A DNA stretch of 63,830 nt, the filler included, from Nitrospinota bacterium (GTDB taxonomy: Bacteria > JADFOP01), in the NCBI GenBank assembly GCA_022562795.1. It is 5 parts of 4 records of this genome, joined end to end, with 100 filler letters (N's around TTAATTAATTAA, not from the genome) between each part and the next. Parts side by side here need not be neighbours in the genome. Positions count along the whole stretch, not along the records: positions 58,386 to 63,830 come from JADFOP010000069.1; 4 more parts are not named here. One strand, 5' to 3'. The notes beneath the pieces were generated by a model, which saw only the letters and a list, made by a program, of their open reading frames with translations, was not told where the DNA came from and searched no databases. A program made the position numbers and the translations under genes. Positions 834 to 63,830 of the stretch are shown here, piece by piece; the first letter of the stretch is position 1, and every line of letters starts with the position of its first letter.

Positions 834-2189
834 CTAGTCACCCCCCGGCGGGGAGAACCCGGAGGGCTCCTTACTGAGGAGGCGGCCCAGCCACTCGTCG
901 CCGTCAGCCCCGCTAATCGGATCAGCCGGTGGACGGGGGGCCATGAGGGAGATGGCCCGGCCGGAGACGACGGAGGCGTTCCCGTAGCGTGCCCTAAGGC
1001 GGTCGAGGCTCTCCGATAGCGCCCAGCGCCGCGCTGGTCCTGGGTCGAGGAGGTCGAACTGGCGGCGGGCTGGGCCGAGGCCCGTGAGCGTCACCCCCAC
1101 GAGCCTAACCCGCAGGCGGCGCACGTCGAGGGACCGAAGGAGACCTACCGCCTCGGCCTCGATGCGGGCTTCATCGCCGGTGGCCTCTGGCAAAGTGGTG
1201 CGACGGGTCGCCGTGGAGAAGTCGCTGTAGCGGAGCTTGACTACTACGGTTCGCGCCTCCAGGCCAAGAGCCCTCATGGAGGTGGCCGCCCTTTGAGCGA
1301 GGGCTGAGAGGGTCGCCTCGATCAGATCGCGGTTGAGGATGTCCTCGTCGAAAGTCCGCTCCCGTCCGATCGATTTTTGCCCATCTGGGTTAGGAGAGAC
1401 GTCCGAAGGAGGGTCGAGCCCACGGGCACACCGCCAAAGCCTTGAGGCGACCGCAGGGCCGAATTTCCGCTCCAGGACCGACCGGTCGAGGGCGGCGAGG
1501 TCGCCGACGGTCTTGAGTCCGAGCCCACGGAGCGATGCTACCGTGGCCGGCCCCACTCCGGGCAGCCGTGCGAGCGGCAGAGGTGATAAGAATGCCGCCT
1601 CCTCTCCGGGGATAATCCGCAAGATTCCCTGGGGCTTGGCGAGCCCCGAGGCCACCTTGGCCATCAGGCGGCCCGGGGCCACGCCAATGGAGCAGGGAAG
1701 GCCAGCCTCCTTAAGAATCTCGCCTTGCAGCCGGGAGGCGACAGACATTGGGTGGCCGAAGAGCCGCTCGCAGCCGGTGAGGTCGAGGTAGGCTTCGTCG
1801 AGCCCCAGGGGCTCGACTTCGGGCGTGTAACGCTCGAAACAGCGAAAGACCGTTCGGGAAGCCTCGCGGTAACGCTTGAAGTTTCCCCGAAGGAAGACGG
1901 CATGTGGGCATAGGCGCCGGGCACGGGAGATGGGCATGGCCGAGTGTATCCCGAAGCGGCGGGCCTCGTAGCTTGCGGCGGCCACTACCCCTCGGCCATT
2001 TGGCGCTCCGCCTACGATAACGGGGCGGCCTGCAAGACTTCGGTCGTAAAGCTCCTCCACGGATACGAAGAAGGCGTCCATATCGACGTGGAGGATGGTG
2101 CGGGGATGGCGCTTCAGGGGAGTCCCTCCATCGTCCCTGCGAGCGAGGTGCTGTGAGCTAACGGTACTTCCGCAAGACTCCGATAACAA
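834..2189 (-). CDS. dinB: DNA polymerase IV (Y family); true start probably near 2120-2165
   Basis: ILHVDMDAFFVSVE, AASYEARRFGIHSAMP, LGLDEAYLD, KPQG; clamp-motif-like RQFDLL. Confidence 0.95.
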   Translation of the reverse strand: MLSESCGSTVSSQHLARRDDGGTPLKRHPRTILHVDMDAFFVSVEELYDRSLAGRPVIVGGAPNGRGVVAAASYEARRFGIHSAMPISRARRLCPHAVFLRGNFKRYREASRTVFRCFERYTPEVEPLGLDEAYLDLTGCERLFGHPMSVASRLQGEILKEAGLPCSIGVAPGRLMAKVASGLAKPQGILRIIPGEEAAFLSPLPLARLPGVGPATVASLRGLGLKTVGDLAALDRSVLERKFGPAVASRLWRCARGLDPPSDVSPNPDGQKSIGRERTFDEDILNRDLIEATLSALAQRAATSMRALGLEARTVVVKLRYSDFSTATRRTTLPEATGDEARIEAEAVGLLRSLDVRRLRVRLVGVTLTGLGPARRQFDLLDPGPARRWALSESLDRLRARYGNASVVSGRAISLMAPRPPADPISGADGDEWLGRLLSKEPSGFSPPGGD

Positions 2190-35257: not shown

Positions 35258-35273
35258 TGGCACATAATTTGCT
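35258..35273 (+). promoter_or_regulatory. sigma54 promoter upstream of the flp-like gene
   Basis: TGGCAC-ATAAT-TTGCT. Confidence 0.75.
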
Positions 35274-35310: not shown

Positions 35311-35511
35311 ATGCGACACATAAGGGAAAAGGAAGGGAAAAACCACCTCGCGAAGCTCATCCACGATTACGAGGGATTCTCGTCGATGGAGTACGGCATA
35401 CTCGTTGGCCTCATTGCGGCGGTCATCGTCGCCTCCGTCACGCTCTTTGGAGCCTCAACGGGAGACCTCTTTGGCAAAGCCGGAACTTCGATCGGTGGCA
35501 CGACGAAGTGA
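35311..35511 (+). CDS. Flp family type IVb pilin
   Basis: DYEG|FSSMEYGILVGLIAAVIVASVTLFG; Flp G|xxxxEY motif. Confidence 0.75.
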   Translation: MRHIREKEGKNHLAKLIHDYEGFSSMEYGILVGLIAAVIVASVTLFGASTGDLFGKAGTSIGGTTK

Positions 35512-58385: not shown

Positions 58386-60491
58386 AAAACCAAGGTCATC
58401 ACCCACCGGATCGCCCGGCTCATCGCCGAGGGCATCTGTAAGCCCTGGGAGCTGCTGGCGGTGACCTTCACCAACAAGGCCGCCGAGGAGATGCGGAGCC
58501 GGGTCGCCGCGCTGCTTGGGGCCGAGGCCGACCGCCTCTGGATCTCGACCTTCCACTCGGCATGCGTCCGCATCCTCAGGCGAGAGATCGGCGCTCTCGG
58601 CTTCCACCCCCAGTTCGTCATCTACGACGAGGCCGACTCGACCGCGTGCCTTAAGGAGGTGGCGCGGGCGATGAACATCTCCGAGAAGGTCACCCCGGCC
58701 CGCCTGCTGAAGCACCACATAAGCTCCTTTAAGAACCTATGCCTCACCCCGGAGGAGGTTTCCGCCGAGGCCGAGGCCGCAGAGTTCGGGCCGGCCGCGG
58801 TGGCCGCCCGCCTCTACCCCCGCTACCAGGCGGCGCTCAAGGCCAACGTGGCCCTCGACTTCGACGACCTCCTCATGGTCACCGTGCTGCTGTTCGAGCA
58901 GTTCCCGGAGGTCTTAGGGCGCTACCAGGAGCGCCTCCGCCACATCCTGGTGGACGAGTACCAGGACACGAACCACACCCAGTACAGGCTGCTCCGTCTT
59001 CTGGCCGCCGGCCACCAAAACCTCTGTGTCGTAGGAGACGATGATCAGTCGATCTACCACTGGCGGGGCGCCAATATCGAGAACATCCTCAACTTCGATG
59101 CCGACTACCCCGATGCCCGGGTCGTGACGCTGGAGGAGAACTACCGCTCGACCCAGACCATTCTCGATGCCGCCTCGGCCGTCGTGGCGTTCAACAAGGG
59201 CCGTCGCCCAAAGACCCTTTTTACGAGCCGTGAGGGCGGCGAGCCCCTGGTCGTCTTCCGGGCCGACGACGAGCGGCAGGAGGCGGAGTTCGTCTCAGCC
59301 ACCATCCGGGCTCTTAGCGAGGAGGGCTCGGCGTGGAGTGGCGCGGCCGTCTTTTACAGGACCAACGCCCAGAGCCGCGTGCTGGAGGAGGCTCTGACCC
59401 GCCACGCCATCCCCTACCAGATCGTCCGGGGTTTTCGCTTCTACGACCGTAAAGAGATCAAGGACCTGGTGGGCTATCTCCGGGTGGCGGTCAACCCCGA
59501 GGACTCGGTGAGCCTCAGGCGCATCATCAACGTCCCGCCCAGGGGCATCGGTGCCAGGACCATCGAGGTCATCGAGGGGGCTGCGGCCGAGCGTGGGGTC
59601 TCCCTCGTCCGGGCCGCCCGGGAGCTCGTGGCGTCGGGGGGGCTTCCGGCGGCCACCGCTCCTAAGGTGGAGGCCTTCGTCCATCTGGTCGATCGGCTCG
59701 GCGAGCTAGCGGCCTCGGCCACGGTGAGCGAGCTGCTCGTCGCGGCGCTGGAGGCCACCGATATGATTGAGCACTACCGCCGGGATTCAAGCCCCGAGGC
59801 CACCACGCGCCTGGAGCACATCCGGGAGCTGATGGGCGCCGTCGAGGAGTTCGAGGAGCGGGTAGAGTCTGACTCAGGCGCTTCGACCGTCGCCTTCCTC
59901 GACCAGGCGGCTCTAAGCAGCCAGGAGGACGACCTCGACGAGGGCGCCGGGGCGGTCTCGCTCATGACGCTCCACGCCAGCAAGGGCCTGGAGTTCGCCG
60001 TCGTCTTCCTGACGGGCATGGAGAACCGAATTTTCCCGCACGCCCGCGCCCTCGACGACCACCAGGACCTGGAGGAGGAGAGGCGGCTCTGCTACGTGGG
60101 GATGACCCGGGCCAAGGAGCGGCTCTTTTTAACCTACGCGGAGCGCCGCCGCCTCCACGGCCACACACAGTTTTACCCGCCGAGCCTCTTTCTGGCCGAG
60201 ATTCCACCGGAAGCGATTCACGACGCGACACCGTCCGCCCGAGGTGGGGCGCATCCGTCCCATCCCCCTGAGGCGGAGCCGGAGCTGGCTCACACGGCCG
60301 TAGAGGATTCCTTCGAAGAGGTGTTCGACCCGGAGCTCATGGTTGGCCGGCGGGTCCACCACCCCTCATTCGGGCAAGGCCAGATTCTGGCCACCGAGGG
60401 AGTGGGAGCCATGATGAAGGTCACCGTGCTCTTCGAGACGGTGGGTCGCAAAAAGCTCATGGCGGCCTACGCCAACCTGCGACCCGCCTGA
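58386..60491 (+). CDS. pcrA: UvrD/PcrA DNA helicase, 5' truncated
   Basis: KTKVITHRIA, TFTNKAA, DEYQD, GDDDQSIY, NYRS, TLHASKGLEF, EEERRL; C-terminal RVHHPSFGQG tudor-like domain. Confidence 0.95.
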   Translation, partial: KTKVITHRIARLIAEGICKPWELLAVTFTNKAAEEMRSRVAALLGAEADRLWISTFHSACVRILRREIGALGFHPQFVIYDEADSTACLKEVARAMNISEKVTPARLLKHHISSFKNLCLTPEEVSAEAEAAEFGPAAVAARLYPRYQAALKANVALDFDDLLMVTVLLFEQFPEVLGRYQERLRHILVDEYQDTNHTQYRLLRLLAAGHQNLCVVGDDDQSIYHWRGANIENILNFDADYPDARVVTLEENYRSTQTILDAASAVVAFNKGRRPKTLFTSREGGEPLVVFRADDERQEAEFVSATIRALSEEGSAWSGAAVFYRTNAQSRVLEEALTRHAIPYQIVRGFRFYDRKEIKDLVGYLRVAVNPEDSVSLRRIINVPPRGIGARTIEVIEGAAAERGVSLVRAARELVASGGLPAATAPKVEAFVHLVDRLGELAASATVSELLVAALEATDMIEHYRRDSSPEATTRLEHIRELMGAVEEFEERVESDSGASTVAFLDQAALSSQEDDLDEGAGAVSLMTLHASKGLEFAVVFLTGMENRIFPHARALDDHQDLEEERRLCYVGMTRAKERLFLTYAERRRLHGHTQFYPPSLFLAEIPPEAIHDATPSARGGAHPSHPPEAEPELAHTAVEDSFEEVFDPELMVGRRVHHPSFGQGQILATEGVGAMMKVTVLFETVGRKKLMAAYANLRPA

Positions 60492-60572
60492 TTAGGGCAT
60501 CCCCGGCTAGCGGATCCTGGAATGGGTCGGCCCATGACCCCTTTTGTGGCTTGACCTTACAGCAGATTGCGC

Positions 60573-60601
60573 TTGAAAAAGGTCCAAAAAAATCGTATAA
60601 A
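60573..60601 (+). promoter_or_regulatory. sigma70 promoter
   Basis: TTGAAA-17-TATAAT. Confidence 0.65.
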
Positions 60602-60692
60602 TAATAGGGAAGCGTTGTAGTTTCAACCCTCCAGGTTTCCATCCTGTTTCGGATGGACCATGGGGGGGATCGAGAAGGCGGGGGATAATCAA

Positions 60693-61088
60693 ATGCCCCA
60701 ATCATATCGAACCTATCGCAAACGCATGGTCGCTCAACAAAGACGCATGCTCCGGCGCCGCGTCCTGGTCGTCCTCTGCCTGACCCTCTTTTTGGCCTGG
60801 GCCCTGCCTTCCGTCATCGCCGGCTGGAATATAATGGGCAACAACGTGGTCGATTCCATGCGGGGTTGGACACCCTATGATTTTGAGCGCCGGGCCAAGC
60901 TGGCCGGCGAGAGGCTGGGCGAATCAGCGCAGAAGGACCTCTCAAAATCTCAGTTTCGGAATCTCTTCAATAGGGAGCTCAAAGGAGCCGGCTCCAAGGA
61001 CATTAAAGAGTTGTTTAAAGACAACGACTTCGCATTTGAAGACGGCTACAAAAAGACCTCCAACTACAAAAAGCGCTATCGCCGATAG
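60693..61088 (+). CDS. Hypothetical basic single-TM protein
   Basis: Arg-rich N-terminus, one TM helix, own promoter. Confidence 0.6.
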   Translation: MPQSYRTYRKRMVAQQRRMLRRRVLVVLCLTLFLAWALPSVIAGWNIMGNNVVDSMRGWTPYDFERRAKLAGERLGESAQKDLSKSQFRNLFNRELKGAGSKDIKELFKDNDFAFEDGYKKTSNYKKRYRR

Positions 61089-61186
61089 ACCCCGCCATCC
61101 CGCCTGATTCCTCATCCGTCAATCCACTTGCCTCCCCTCAAGAGCCTGGGCTATGATGTAGTCCCGCTCCATGCCTGGAGGGCCCG

Positions 61187-61480
61187 ATGCCTGAGAAGAT
61201 TTCCCGCGACGAGGTCTTGCACGTCGCCCGGCTGGCGAGGCTCACCTTCTCCGAGGCCGAGGTGGACCGTCTTGCCGAGCAGCTCTCGGCGATCCTCGCC
61301 TACATAGAGAAGCTCGACGAGCTCGACACCACGGGCGTGGAGCCGACGAGCCACATCCTACCCCTGACAAACGTCTTTAAGGACGATGAAGCCCGTCCCT
61401 CAGCGAAGCGCGAGCAAATTATGGCCGGCGGCCCCAGCACCGAGCACGGCCATTACAAAGTGCCGAAGATCGTCGAGTGA
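61187..61480 (+). CDS. gatC: Asp/Glu-tRNA amidotransferase subunit C
   Basis: [31 protein letters not shown]. Confidence 0.96.
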
Positions 61481-61494
61481 GGCCCAACCCCTCC

Positions 61495-62961
61495 ATGAGC
61501 CTGGCCCACCTGACCATCCGCGAGCTTCGAGATAAGCTGCTCGACGGCGAATGCACGGCCCTTCAGGCCACCGAGGCCTGCCTGGAGCGCATCGCCCAGG
61601 TGGAAGACTCCGTTCGCGCCTTCATCGTCGTCACCAACGATAGAGCCTTAGACGAAGCCCGGGCCGCCGACGAGGTGCTGCGCCGGAGGGGAGCGGAAGC
61701 TCCCCTGCTGACCGGCATCCCCCTTGCCATCAAGGACCTCATAGCGGTCGAGGGTGTGCCGTGCACCTGTGGATCGAAAATTCTCTCAAACTTCGTGCCC
61801 CCGTACGATGCGACCGTCATCGAACGGCTCAAGGCAGCCGGAGCGGTCGTTCTCGGCAAGCTCAACATGGACGAGTTCGCCATGGGCTCCTCAACCGAGA
61901 CCTCTTACTCCGGGCCGACCCACAACCCTTGGGACCTGACGAAAATCCCTGGTGGCTCCTCAGGTGGGAGCGCGGCGGCCGTGGCGGCCGACGAGTGCAT
62001 CGCGGCCCTGGGCAGCGACACCGGAGGATCTGTGAGGCAGCCGGCCTCTTACTGCGGCGTGGTGGGCTTGAAGCCGACCTACGGGCGTGTGAGCCGCTAC
62101 GGGCTCGTGGCCTACGCCTCGAGCCTCGACCAGATCGGGCCCGTCACGAAAGACGTTGCCGACTGCGCGACTCTCATGAACCTCATCGCCGGGCACGACC
62201 CCCTCGACTCGACGAGCGCTACCGTAGAGGCGCCCGACTTTTCCGAATCTCTGGTGGAAGACGTAGAGGGAATTACCATCGGTATGCCCCGAGAATACTT
62301 CATCGATGGTGTGGACCCGGAGGTCGATGCCGCGGTTAGGGAAGCCGTCGGGCAGCTCGAATCATGGGGCGCGCGCGTCGAGGAGATCAGTCTGCCCCAC
62401 ACCGAGTACGCCGTAGCCTGCTACTACATCATCGCCCCGGCGGAGGCCTCGAGCAATCTGGCACGCTACGATGGGGTGAAATACGGCCACCGGGCGGAGG
62501 AGCCGGCCGACCTCATGGAGATGTACTGCCGCACCCGGGCCGAAGGCTTCGGCGAGGAGGTCAAACGGAGGATAATGCTCGGCACCTATGCGCTCTCGGC
62601 CGGCTACTACGAGGCCTACTACCGAAAGGCCCAGCAGGTCCGCACCCTTATCCGCGCCGACTTCGATGAGGCCTTCGAGCGGGTGGACCTCATCGCCACC
62701 CCCGTGGCTCCCACAGCCGCCTTCGGCCTCGGAGAGAAGCTCGGCGATCCCCTCCAGATGTATCTCTCGGACATCTTCACCATCAGCGTGAACCTCGCCG
62801 GCGTGCCGGGCCTCTCCATCCCCTGCGGCTTTTCCTCCTCCGGGCTCCCCATCGGGCTCCAGCTCATAGGCCGCCCCTTCGATGAGGCCACCCTCTTTCG
62901 GGCCGCCTACACCTTCGAGCAACGGACCGACCATCACAAGAAGAAGCCCTCCCTGGGTTGA
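61495..62961 (+). CDS. gatA: Asp/Glu-tRNA amidotransferase subunit A
   Basis: [42 protein letters not shown]. Confidence 0.98.
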
Positions 62962-63001
62962 AGGAACGAAGGGACCTGTCCCTCAAATTCTCGGACAGGG
63001 A

Positions 63002-63033
63002 GTCGCAAGCGACCTTTGGTCGGCCCGATTACC
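63002..63033 (-). repeat. REP-like hairpin, family B, second copy
   Basis: GGTAATCGGGCCGACCAAAGGTCGCTTGCGAC on the - strand, near-identical to 48869-48899. Confidence 0.7.
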
Positions 63034-63244
63034 TGTTTGTTGAGAGATGGCCTTTCCGCAAGCTTCATCGCTCAAATCATACATCAGGTTTGGGATATCA
63101 GCAGATGGCGCTCGACGCTCGTCCTTACCATGAGACGCGCGTGAGACGAAGCCCAGCCACCTGTGAGCTATCAATTCCTTTCTTTCCAGACAGTTCCATA
63201 CCACAGCCACGACCGGGTGCGGGTGTAAAAGCGCCGTTCCACGG

Positions 63245-63260
63245 TGGCACCGAATTTGCT
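63245..63260 (+). promoter_or_regulatory. sigma54 promoter
   Basis: TGGCAC-CGAAT-TTGCT. Confidence 0.75.
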
Positions 63261-63270
63261 TTGTATACAA

Positions 63271-63382
63271 GACAGGACAACGCGGAGGAAGGTTGTCATA
63301 TAACGAACGATCGCCCCGCCGGGGGGAAGGGGCGCGCCGTGGGGTGGGATTCTCCTTGAATCCCGCCTCCCGGCATTTTTTT
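63271..63382 (+). ncRNA. Candidate sigma54-dependent sRNA (~110 nt)
   Basis: Promoter, two hairpins with GGA-containing loops, then a terminator hairpin and T7. Confidence 0.55.
63336..63382 (+). terminator. Rho-independent terminator
   Basis: GCCG-T-GGGGTGGGATTC-TCCTT-GAATCCCGCCTC-C-CGGC-A-TTTTTTT. Confidence 0.8.
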
Positions 63383-63633
63383 ATTGGCGATTATGCAGAT
63401 GAGTCAGCAAATCGCCCATTCAATTTCGTCACGCATCCTTCCAGAACTCTCTCAACGAAGTCTCCATTCTCAAGGTGTCGTGCATTTACTGTCATATCTG
63501 GCCCTCCTTAGCCTTGACGAGAGAGCCAGTTCTGAGTATCCTTGGAATTGCAACGGCCAAGTCTCTTGCTTGCTCAGGGCTTGGTCTTGGCCTCAATGAG
63601 ATTGCGGTCCCATTGGGGCCTTTTTATAGCCTC

Positions 63634-63662
63634 TTGAATTGGTATAACATGTATGTTATAAT
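63634..63662 (+). promoter_or_regulatory. sigma70 promoter with a perfect palindromic operator
   Basis: TTGAAT-17-TATAAT overlapped by TATAACAT-GT-ATGTTATA. Confidence 0.65.
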
Positions 63663-63709
63663 ATTATCAACAGAAAAACTGGACAATAGAACAAAAATGT
63701 GATACTTTA

Positions 63710-63830
63710 ATGACTAGGAAGCTTTGGAGTATTGAAGAGTATTCAAGTGCATGGAGTTCTCTTTATGATAGATGTGACCAGGATACGAAAGAAATTCTTG
63801 ACCGCAAATGTGACCAGTTGCGGGAAAAGG
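63710..63830 (+). CDS. Partial ORF, possibly a RelE/HigB-type toxin N-terminus
   Basis: MTRKLWSIEEYSSAWSSLYDRCDQDTKEILDRKCDQLREK... open to the window end. Confidence 0.4.
   Translation, partial: MTRKLWSIEEYSSAWSSLYDRCDQDTKEILDRKCDQLREK

What the first reader, a model, noticed from the sequence alone, without database searches (positions are those of the whole stretch)
63245..63382. Candidate novel sigma54-dependent sRNA with GGA loops
Seen: a consensus TGGCAC-N5-TTGCT promoter with predicted +1 near 63271; then ACAGGA, hairpin GACAAC-[GCGGAGGAAG]-GTTGTC, hairpin CGCCCC-[GCCGGGGGGAA]-GGGGCG, and a strong terminator with T7. There is no ATG inside. A TGAGACG direct repeat at ~63131-63148 lies where an enhancer-binding protein site would be expected. 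Known: CsrB/RsmYZ titrate CsrA through GGA loops, and Qrr, CrcZ and NrsZ are sigma54 sRNAs. Inference: a self-contained sRNA gene, either a CsrA sponge or a base-pairing RNA with exposed purine loops.
Basis: partly seen in the sequence, partly recalled or inferred. Interest (0 to 1): 0.7.

Follow-up and report, generated by a model that had tools for sequence, protein, structure and literature searches.

The report
Sigma-54 small RNA gene family
This is very probably a real small non-coding RNA gene switched on by the alternative sigma factor sigma-54, one of four related copies in two sister species of an uncultured marine-sediment bacterium, but it is not a CsrA-binding sponge and nothing yet shows what it regulates.

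Summary
An exact TGGCAC-N5-TTGCT promoter lies at 63245-63260. It is followed by an ORF-free, three-hairpin stretch of about 110 nt that ends in a 16-pair stem and T7.

- **Homologues.** Rfam has no match. A covariance model built from this one sequence found homologues: a paralogue in the same genome (C6) and one copy in the only same-genus genome, G001. A second model found another G001 copy. No match was found in the other 149 of 151 genomes searched.
- **Conserved parts.** The promoter, a small GC hairpin and the terminator hairpin are conserved. The terminator hairpin is 96% paired, with two compensatory pairs.
- **Variable parts.** The 5' hairpin and its GGA loop are not conserved, and neither is the TGAGACG repeat.
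- **Protein partners.** rpoN and about nine activator genes are present. csrA, hfq and proQ were not found in this 97%-complete genome.
- **Link to pili.** The promoter shares two positioned upstream blocks with the sigma-54 promoters of Flp pilin genes, and the paralogue sits before tadE/tadG.

Best reading: a genus-specific sigma-54 riboregulator, possibly co-regulated with Tad pili. No expression data exist.

The parts
63072..63084 (+). Far-upstream block TCAAATCATACAT, about 173 nt before the -24 element. Candidate activator (UAS) site.
   Evidence: The same 13-mer lies at -167 in the C6 paralogue. TCAAATCAT lies at -174 in the flp C83 promoter. It is collinear with TTGATCAAATC(A/C)TC of four flp promoters. 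Its function is inferred.
63131..63148 (+). Probably not a functional site.
   Evidence: One of 4 such 7-nt direct repeats in 439 nt. Not conserved in the homologues.
63176..63197 (+). Conserved upstream block TCCTTTCTTTCCAGACAGTTCC. IHF-like site, judged against the WATCAANNNNTTR consensus recalled from memory.
   Evidence: Conserved in 3 of 3 copies that have upstream sequence. The motif lies 60-63 nt before the -24 element in 4 promoters: this one, C6, flp C28 and flp C46. Those are 4 of only 12 occurrences genome-wide.
63239..63247 (.). Palindrome CCACNGTGG overlapping the -24 element.
   Evidence: Present in all 3 sRNA promoters that have this region, and absent from the flp promoters. 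Its meaning is unknown.
63245..63260 (+). Sigma-54 promoter TGGCAC-N5-TTGCT (-24/-12). Predicted +1 about 63271.
   Evidence: Conserved as TGGCACCAAATTTGC(T/G) in G001 C157 and G000 C6.
63271..63382 (+). Predicted non-coding transcript of about 110 nt.
   Evidence: Fold. No ATG and no Pfam-supported ORF. Covariance-model homologues.
63276..63297 (+). Hairpin 1, GACAAC / GTTGTC, with the GGA-rich loop GCGGAGGAAG. This is the variable 5' domain.
   Evidence: Only 62% of cells are paired across the four copies, and the loop sequence is not conserved.
63312..63334 (+). Hairpin 2. The conserved CCC(G)...(C)GGG core is extended in this copy.
   Evidence: The core pairs are invariant in 4 of 4 copies. 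It forms GUCCCG-CCGG-CGGGAC in C6 and G001 C66.
63336..63382 (+). Hairpin 3 plus the T7 run: an intrinsic terminator.
   Evidence: Arms listed and folded. Across the four copies 96% of cells are paired, 2 pairs change on both sides and 2 on one side.
63384..63830 (.). Strain-variable, lower-GC DNA after the terminator. It runs to the contig end and is context, not part of the RNA.
   Evidence: Contigs from X2 and X4 match up to 63383 and then run on unlike the window. GC falls from 0.58 to 0.345. No similarity to the other copies beyond the T run.

Best explanation
63245-63382 is a stand-alone gene for a non-coding RNA of about 110 nt. Sigma-54 RNA polymerase, helped by an enhancer-binding activator, starts transcription near 63271. 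Transcription stops at a strong intrinsic terminator.

The gene belongs to a small family confined, as far as searched, to one genus: two copies here and two in the sister species. The family has three parts:
- a conserved sigma-54 promoter region;
- a variable 5' domain, which here carries the purine-rich loop;
- a conserved 3' scaffold made of a small GC hairpin and the terminator hairpin.

Most likely the RNA acts in trans as a riboregulator. Its variable 5' domain would pair with target mRNAs, and the 3' scaffold would give stability or a protein handle. It would be switched on together with the Flp/Tad pilin genes, whose sigma-54 promoters share its upstream layout.

What is shown: the promoter match, the fold, the homologues, the conserved pairing, rpoN and activator genes present, and no csrA, hfq or proQ found. 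What is inferred: transcription itself, action in trans by base pairing, and co-regulation with the pilin genes.
For: **Promoter**
- The exact -24/-12 consensus occurs 2 times in the window against 0.04 expected.
- It occurs 15 times genome-wide against about 2 expected from base composition.
- Five of the 15 sit before Flp pilin genes, four of them above Pfam's cut-off, so the motif marks working promoters in this organism.
- Among the 15, this is the only one followed by a T run preceded by a strong hairpin (-30.6 kcal/mol; the only other T run found has a -6.3 kcal/mol hairpin), and none of its downstream ORFs matches Pfam.
- rpoN is present, with about 9 strong Sigma54_activat genes.

**Homologues**
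- The single-sequence model R1 found G001:C157 (63.4 bits, E 8.6e-15) and G000:C6 (34.6 bits, E 1.8e-6), both full length.
- Model R2 found a further copy not used to build it, G001:C66 (59.6 bits, E 9.1e-11), even though its promoter is cut off by the contig end.

**Conserved structure**
- Terminator helix: 96% of cells paired, 2 pairs changed on both sides and 2 on one side.
- Whole structure: 87.6% paired against 82.2% in shuffles, with 0 of 500 shuffles as high. Sliding the partners drops pairing to 39-56%.
- All four copies fold into hairpin 2 plus hairpin 3.

**Gene boundary**
- Contigs from two other strains (X2 with 2 differences, X4 with 0) match up to 63383 and then diverge.

**Link to Flp/Tad pili**
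- Two positioned upstream blocks are shared with flp promoters.
- The C6 paralogue lies upstream of TadE (66.9 bits) and TadE/G-like genes.
Against: - **No expression evidence.** No RNA holder was listed.
- **Thin covariation.** Only four sequences from two species are available. The shuffle control for pairs changed on both sides was reached in 23 of 500 shuffles.
- **One weak fold.** The G001 C157 copy folds no better than shuffles (z -0.67; 47 of 200 shuffles fold as well).
- **Weaker terminators elsewhere.** The U tract is poor in C6 (AAUUUAUAU) and in C157 (AUCCUUU, then the contig ends). Those copies may read through, so a leader role is possible for them.
- **No canonical chaperone.** No Hfq, ProQ or CsrA domain was found.
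- **No target.** My crude duplex scan was uninformative.
- **The link to flp promoters is modest.** An nhmmer profile of flp upstream regions hit the C6 copy only at E 0.24 and did not hit this copy. The flp leader profile hit neither. The positioned motif was also defined after seeing these sequences.
Confidence: 0.55

Rival explanations
1. It is a cis-acting leader or attenuator. The sigma-54 promoter drives downstream genes, and the hairpins with the terminator throttle read-through. In this copy the regulated genes have been displaced by inserted DNA.
For: - In the C6 paralogue and in G001 C66 the unit lies upstream of protein genes: tadE/tadG in C6, and a 105-aa ORF followed by a PqqD-like gene in C66.
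- The C6 terminator has a weak U tract.
Against: - In C6 and G001 C66 a conserved TTGACA-17-TATATT sigma-70 promoter and a second terminated short RNA lie between the unit and the genes. The genes therefore have their own promoter.
- The downstream genes differ between copies.
- This copy has a 16-pair stem plus U7, and strains diverge immediately after it.
- No alternative anti-terminator pairing with the 5' arm of the terminator was seen. The only alternative pairing listed involves the 3' arm.
Confidence: 0.2
2. It is an evolutionary relic. A duplicated Flp-pilin-type promoter region lost its gene, leaving a promoter and a terminator hairpin with no function of their own.
For: - The upstream layout is collinear with flp promoters.
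- The paralogue sits where a pilin gene would be expected, before tadE/tadG.
- The 5' half of the RNA varies freely between copies.
Against: - The promoter is conserved to the exact consensus in 3 of 3 copies where it is visible.
- Hairpins 2 and 3 are kept across two species whose copies are only 59-71% identical overall, with compensatory changes.
- No residual similarity to flp leaders or coding sequence was found.
Confidence: 0.12
3. It is a protein-titrating sponge of the CsrB/RsmY/RsmZ type that sequesters CsrA through GGA loops.
For: This copy has GGA in ACAGGAC, GCGGAGGAAG and GGGGGGAAGG.
Against: - No CsrA domain was found in a 97.1%-complete genome, while the control search found it in 3 named genomes.
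- The GGA loops are absent from the three homologues.
- No Rfam match to any Csr/Rsm family, even at E up to 10.
- It has only 3-4 GGA motifs.
Confidence: 0.03
4. It encodes a small protein. GGAGGA would serve as the ribosome-binding site for the TTG ORF 63293-63511.
For: GGAGG lies 4 nt before TTG 63293, and the frame stays open for 72 codons.
Against: - No Pfam match.
- The TTG lies in the 3' arm of hairpin 1, and the frame runs through the terminator.
- Other strains diverge at 63383, inside the frame.
- The homologues have neither the GGAGG nor the TTG, and no ORF is shared.
Confidence: 0.02

Closest known systems
Qrr1-5 of Vibrio. These are sigma-54/LuxO-dependent multi-copy sRNAs. I saw only the abstracts of PMC3730234 and bioRxiv 10.1101/2021.07.01.450815.
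   Same: - Short RNAs of about 100 nt transcribed from -24/-12 promoters that need an enhancer-binding activator.
- Several paralogous copies per genome, each with its own terminator.
   Different: - No Rfam match to any family, Qrr included.
- Qrr copies share a conserved seed and need Hfq (recalled). Here the 5' domain is the variable part and no Hfq was found.
- The lineage is unrelated.
The RpoN-dependent sRNA of the Campylobacter jejuni flagellar hierarchy. I saw only the abstract of PMC11187230.
   Same: An sRNA wired by sigma-54 into the expression programme of a surface appendage. That is the role I infer here for Flp/Tad pili.
   Different: - No sequence or Rfam relationship.
- The appendage is the flagellum, not a pilus.
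- Co-regulation here is inferred only from shared upstream promoter blocks.
CrcZ, NrsZ, GlmY and Pxr, other sigma-54-dependent sRNAs.
   Same: Sigma-54 promoter plus a stand-alone structured RNA. Pxr is also a three-stem-loop RNA with paralogues (recalled).
   Different: - No Rfam match.
- CrcZ works by titrating a protein through repeated A-rich motifs, and GlmY by protein mimicry (recalled). No repeated conserved motif is seen here.
CsrB/RsmY/RsmZ sponges
   Same: This copy has a few GGA motifs in predicted loops.
   Different: CsrA was not found, the GGA motifs are not conserved, and the promoter type differs.

Membership tests
Sigma-54-dependent stand-alone sRNA (functional class) | -24 GG / -12 GC promoter with canonical spacing | tested here: met
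   TGGCAC-N5-TTGCT at 63245-63260. Conserved in 3 of 3 copies where the region is present.
Sigma-54-dependent stand-alone sRNA (functional class) | rpoN and enhancer-binding activators encoded in the genome | tested here: met
   Sigma54_DBD at 204.6 bits. There are 14 Sigma54_activat matches, 9 of them above 100 bits.
Sigma-54-dependent stand-alone sRNA (functional class) | Own terminator and no coding potential | tested here: met
   16-pair stem plus T7. No ATG, no Pfam-supported ORF and no ORF shared between copies.
Sigma-54-dependent stand-alone sRNA (functional class) | A discrete transcript that depends on sigma-54 | not testable with these tools
   No RNA run was listed as holding the stretch.
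CsrB/RsmY/RsmZ (CsrA sponge) | CsrA/RsmA protein present | tested here: not met
   PF02599 gave 0 matches in the 97.1%-complete genome, while the control search found it in 3 named genomes.
CsrB/RsmY/RsmZ (CsrA sponge) | Many conserved GGA motifs in loops | tested here: not met
   3-4 GGA motifs in this copy only. They are not conserved in the three homologues.
CsrB/RsmY/RsmZ (CsrA sponge) | Match to an Rfam Csr/Rsm model | tested here: not met
   No such match at E up to 10.
Qrr | Match to the Rfam Qrr model or its conserved seed | tested here: not met
   No Rfam match on this copy or on the three homologues.
Qrr | Hfq dependence | tested here: not met
   PF17209 gave 0 matches in the genome. 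Dependence itself cannot be tested here.
Terminator-type leader or attenuator | Conserved linkage to a regulated downstream gene | tested here: not met
   The downstream genes differ between copies. A separate sigma-70 promoter intervenes in two copies. Here the downstream DNA varies between strains.
Terminator-type leader or attenuator | Alternative anti-terminator fold | tested here: inconclusive
   The only alternative pairing listed (63318-63326 with 63366-63374) involves the 3' arm of the terminator. No ligand- or protein-dependent switch could be tested.

The most novel reading that the evidence does not exclude
The family was born from duplicated Flp-pilin promoter regions in which the pilin gene was replaced by an RNA scaffold. 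It now forms the RNA arm of a sigma-54 Tad-pilus (surface attachment) regulon. The activator could be the REC-PAS-GGDEF-AAA+ enhancer-binding protein encoded next to one pilin gene. This bacterium has no detectable Hfq, ProQ or CsrA, so the invariant palindromic hairpin GUCCCG-CCGG-CGGGAC would be the handle for an RNA-binding partner not yet described. The 3' end of the gene would also mark a hotspot for the insertion of foreign DNA.
Probability: 0.12. Interest if true: 0.6.

Novelty: new member of a known kind. Interest (0 to 1): 0.4.

Why it matters
Sigma-54-dependent sRNAs are known from a few proteobacteria, where they tie signal-dependent activators to post-transcriptional control. This would be a first candidate in a deep, uncultured marine-sediment lineage. 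Earlier notes of this scan, and the record title of the sister genome, label that lineage Nitrospinota/Nitrospinae, and it has only three species in the genome collection searched.

It gives a concrete, conserved RNA with a defined promoter to look for in sediment metatranscriptomes. It also hints that pilus expression and an RNA regulator share one control region. The practical value is modest until expression or a target is shown.

Tried and rejected
**Searches that found nothing**
- Rfam 15 at E up to 10 on 62900-63830 gave only sub-threshold chance hits; the best was asX2 on the opposite strand, 21.9 bits against a gathering score of 70. The three homologous loci likewise gave nothing.
- BLAST of 63200-63400 against 61 genomes (relatives plus G000) matched only the window's own genome, 1 of 61. 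The homologues needed a covariance model.
- BLAST-short within the genome found no second copy either.
- An exact 24-mer from hairpin 1 had 0 hits in metagenome contigs.
- GatA-based loci from metagenome contigs: 80 kept, best identity 66%. They are too distant, and I did not examine them further.
- A degenerate pattern for hairpins 2-3 in genome contigs gave 3 loci: the two G001 copies and one that I read as a chance hit, in Nonomuraea.

**Sequencing runs (no weight for or against)**
- No RNA holder was listed for the stretch.
- The run guessed to be RNA (X20) and the DNA run X1 had no cover over 63118-63299.

**Synteny**
- In G001 the DNA downstream of gatA is unrelated.
- In G002 gatB follows gatA.

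**Other tests**
- Target prediction with RNAduplex, using the first 48 nt against 6699 crude ORF starts. The top hit was the RNA's own antisense strand, inside a spurious ORF. The rest were long, loopy duplexes of -40 to -44 kcal/mol. No shuffle control was run, so I treat the scan as uninformative.
- Common descent from flp genes. The nhmmer profile of flp upstream regions hit C6 only at E 0.24 and did not hit C63, and the flp leader/CDS profile hit neither. The MAFFT alignment of the transcribed regions therefore shows no demonstrable homology.
- 9-mers shared among the upstream regions of sigma-54 promoters looked to me no more frequent than chance (not tested), apart from the two positioned blocks.
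- The sigma-70 cassette that follows the C6 copy is single-copy in this genome and absent after this copy.
- Pfam on seven local ORFs found nothing above cut-off.
- Notes of this scan: no note near this place or matching this sequence.

Full report
**Where it lies**

The window is a chain of contigs from one metagenome-assembled genome, G000: 2.15 Mb, 84 contigs, 97.1% complete, GC 0.60. The finding sits on the 5445-bp contig C63, which is window 58386-63830.

On that contig the order of features is:
- a helicase-like ORF and a small ORF;
- the ORFs I read as gatC (61187-61480) and gatA (61477-61961 to 62961, i.e. 61477-62961);
- a REP-like dispersed repeat at about 62970-63035, with 29 hits to its 20-nt core (up to 2 mismatches) in the genome, one of which looks spurious;
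- about 210 nt of non-coding DNA;
- the candidate itself;
- lower-GC DNA running to the contig end.

- TGGCACCGAATTTGCT lies at 63245-63260, which puts +1 near 63271.
- 63271-63382 folds into three hairpins at -52.3 kcal/mol, z -2.71; 3 of 200 shuffles fold as well.
- The last hairpin has 16 pairs and is followed by T7.
- There is no ATG in the stretch.

The promoter pattern is far commoner than chance. It occurs 2 times in the window against 0.04 expected. It occurs 15 times in the genome against about 2 expected from base composition (my arithmetic). Five of the 15 precede Flp pilin genes. By my reading of the sequences, others precede glnB-like and glmU-like starts. Exact matches therefore mark real promoters in this organism. 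The genome encodes rpoN and about nine strong enhancer-binding activators. Among the 15, this is the only promoter followed by a T run preceded by a strong hairpin, and none of the ORFs after it matches Pfam.

BLAST found nothing beyond the window's own genome in 61 genomes, and Rfam has no match. A covariance model built from this single sequence (R1) found two full-length homologues:
- G001:C157, in the only same-genus genome: 63.4 bits, E 8.6e-15;
- G000:C6:722-853, a paralogue in the same genome: 34.6 bits, E 1.8e-6.

A model built from those three (R2) found a fourth copy that was not used to build it. This is G001:C66, at 59.6 bits and E 9.1e-11, although its promoter is cut off by the contig end. 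The third genome of the phylum (G002) had no match. Across 151 genomes searched with R2, only G000 and G001 matched, 2 of 151. A pattern scan of the whole species-representative collection returned only the two G001 copies and one hit that I read as chance. The copies are 59-71% identical in the RNA region.

**What is conserved and what is not**

Conserved:
- the promoter, TGGCACC-AATTTGC;
- an upstream block, CCTTTCTT(A/T)(T/C)CAGA(C/T)AGTTCC;
- a palindrome, CCACNGTGG, overlapping the -24 element;
- a small GC hairpin, GUCCCG-CCGG-CGGGAC in two copies, with its core pairs invariant in 4 of 4;
- the terminator hairpin.

Terminator hairpin:

| Measure | Value |
|---|---|
| Cells paired | 96% |
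| Pairs changed on both sides | 2 (G-C to A-U; C-G to U-A) |
| Pairs changed on one side | 2 |

Whole structure:

| Measure | Value |
|---|---|
| Cells paired, observed | 87.6% |
| Cells paired, shuffled | 82.2% (0 of 500 shuffles as high) |
| Cells paired, partners slid | 39-56% |

With four sequences this is supportive, not conclusive. The count of pairs changed on both sides was reached in 23 of 500 shuffles.

Not conserved:
- Hairpin 1 is only 62% paired across the copies.
- Its GGA-rich loop is specific to this copy.
- The TGAGACG repeat is specific to this copy, and is one of four equal 7-nt repeats in 439 nt.

The CsrA-sponge idea fails on two tested points. No CsrA domain was found, and the GGA motifs are not conserved. 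Hfq and ProQ domains were not found either. If the RNA acts by pairing, it does so without the canonical chaperones or with an unknown one.

The TTG ORF 63293-63511 has no Pfam match. It runs through the terminator, has no counterpart in the homologues, and is cut by a strain-level break (next section).

**Boundary**

Contigs from two marine-sediment DNA runs cover the element:
- X2: a 396-nt record, laid from 62997 to 63383, with 2 differences;
- X4: a 239-nt record, laid from 63185 to 63383, with 0 differences.

Both stop matching at 63383, one base after the T run, with 9 and 40 further letters that do not fit the window. Similarity to the paralogues also ends at the T run. GC falls to 0.345-0.44 towards the contig end. 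The terminator is therefore the edge of the conserved unit, and strain-variable DNA follows it. This argues against a leader for a fixed downstream gene. It also resembles the known tendency of small RNA genes to flank inserted DNA, which I recall from memory and did not test.

**Regulatory context**

Aligned on the -24 element, this promoter and the C6 paralogue share two positioned blocks with the Flp pilin promoters on C28, C46, C83 and C3:
- TCAAATC(A/C)T at about -172;
- TTATCA(A/G)N(C/T)AGTTCC at about -60. This resembles an IHF site, judged against a consensus recalled from memory.

The second motif occurs 12 times genome-wide, close to the 11.6 expected. Four of those 12 lie 60-63 nt before a sigma-54 -24 element. 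The motif was defined after I had seen these sequences, so the count is partly circular.

An nhmmer profile of flp upstream regions gave the C6 copy as its best non-flp hit, but only at E 0.24. It did not hit this copy. The flp leader profile hit neither. I therefore treat shared cis elements as likely and common descent as unproven.

Two further facts point the same way:
- The C6 paralogue lies just upstream of tadE and tadE/G-like genes.
- One pilin gene is preceded by a 768-aa REC-PAS-GGDEF-AAA+-HTH_8 activator, an obvious candidate regulator.

**Mechanism**

My best reading, at 0.55, is a stand-alone sigma-54 riboregulator. It would have a variable 5' recognition domain and a conserved 3' scaffold, and it would be induced together with Tad pili.

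Rivals:

| Reading | Confidence | Main point |
|---|---|---|
| Cis leader or attenuator | 0.2 | Plausible mainly for the copies with weak U tracts |
| Functionless relic of a duplicated pilin promoter | 0.12 | Opposed by the conservation between species |
| CsrA sponge | 0.03 | No CsrA found; GGA motifs not conserved |
| Small protein | 0.02 | No Pfam match; no ORF shared between copies |

**Compared with what is known**

It works like the sigma-54-dependent sRNAs:
- Qrr (abstracts of PMC3730234 and bioRxiv 10.1101/2021.07.01.450815);
- the RpoN-dependent flagellar sRNA of Campylobacter jejuni (abstract of PMC11187230);
- CrcZ, NrsZ, GlmY and Pxr (recalled from memory).

It is a member of none of these families, because no Rfam family matches. 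I found no description of such an RNA in this lineage. Two literature searches were run. Of the 10 papers listed, none contained the word Nitrospinae. That is only a partial check.

**Verdict**

This is a real, conserved and previously uncatalogued member of a known kind of regulator. It is of moderate interest, and both expression and targets remain open.

Noticed in passing
window 62970-63035: A REP-like palindromic element lies directly after the gatA stop codon. Its 20-nt core (up to 2 mismatches) has 29 hits in the genome, one of which looks spurious, often in clusters of related hairpin units.
   Followed up: partly
window 35258-35273 and about 35362-35490: The second exact sigma-54 promoter of the window precedes a small Flp-like pilin ORF. 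Its Flp_Fap score is 25.8 bits, below the 32.2 cut-off.
   Followed up: partly
L103:254-2560 (-) = G000:C28: A 768-aa enhancer-binding protein with REC-PAS-GGDEF-AAA+-HTH_8 architecture. It ends about 200 nt upstream of a sigma-54 Flp pilin promoter. A diguanylate-cyclase domain fused to a sigma-54 activator seems unusual to me (not checked).
   Followed up: partly
L087:855-946 and L089 (minus strand) about 1420-1495: Directly after the C6 and G001 C66 copies lies a conserved perfect sigma-70 promoter, TTGACA-17-TATATT. It is followed by a short RNA of about 55-60 nt with its own strong terminator. The promoter is conserved between the species, but the transcript sequence is not.
   Followed up: partly
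L089 (minus strand) 1-1383: Downstream of the G001 C66 copy lie a 105-aa ORF with no Pfam match and a leader-like charged N-terminus, then a PqqD-like/HExxH membrane protein, with two near-identical intergenic repeats. This looks like a peptide-maturation (RiPP-like) cluster.
   Followed up: no
window 61187-62961; L003; L004: gatB follows gatA in the same-class genome G002, but not in G000 or G001. In those two genomes unrelated, variable DNA follows gatA.
   Followed up: no
window 63500-63830: A low-GC stretch (0.345-0.44) with a sigma-70-like TTGAAT-17-TATAAT at 63634-63662. An ORF starts at 63710 and is cut by the contig end; it has no Pfam match. The stretch is probably part of a strain-variable island.
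   Followed up: partly
L086 about 590-650 and L003 about 1370-1400 (minus strands): Iteron-like TTAGACAC(T/A)TT repeats occur in G001, both upstream of its C157 copy and downstream of its gatA.
   Followed up: no
window 63239-63247; L087 about 716-724; L086 about 131-139: The palindrome CCACNGTGG overlaps the -24 element in all three sRNA promoters and is absent from the flp promoters. It could be an operator.
   Followed up: no
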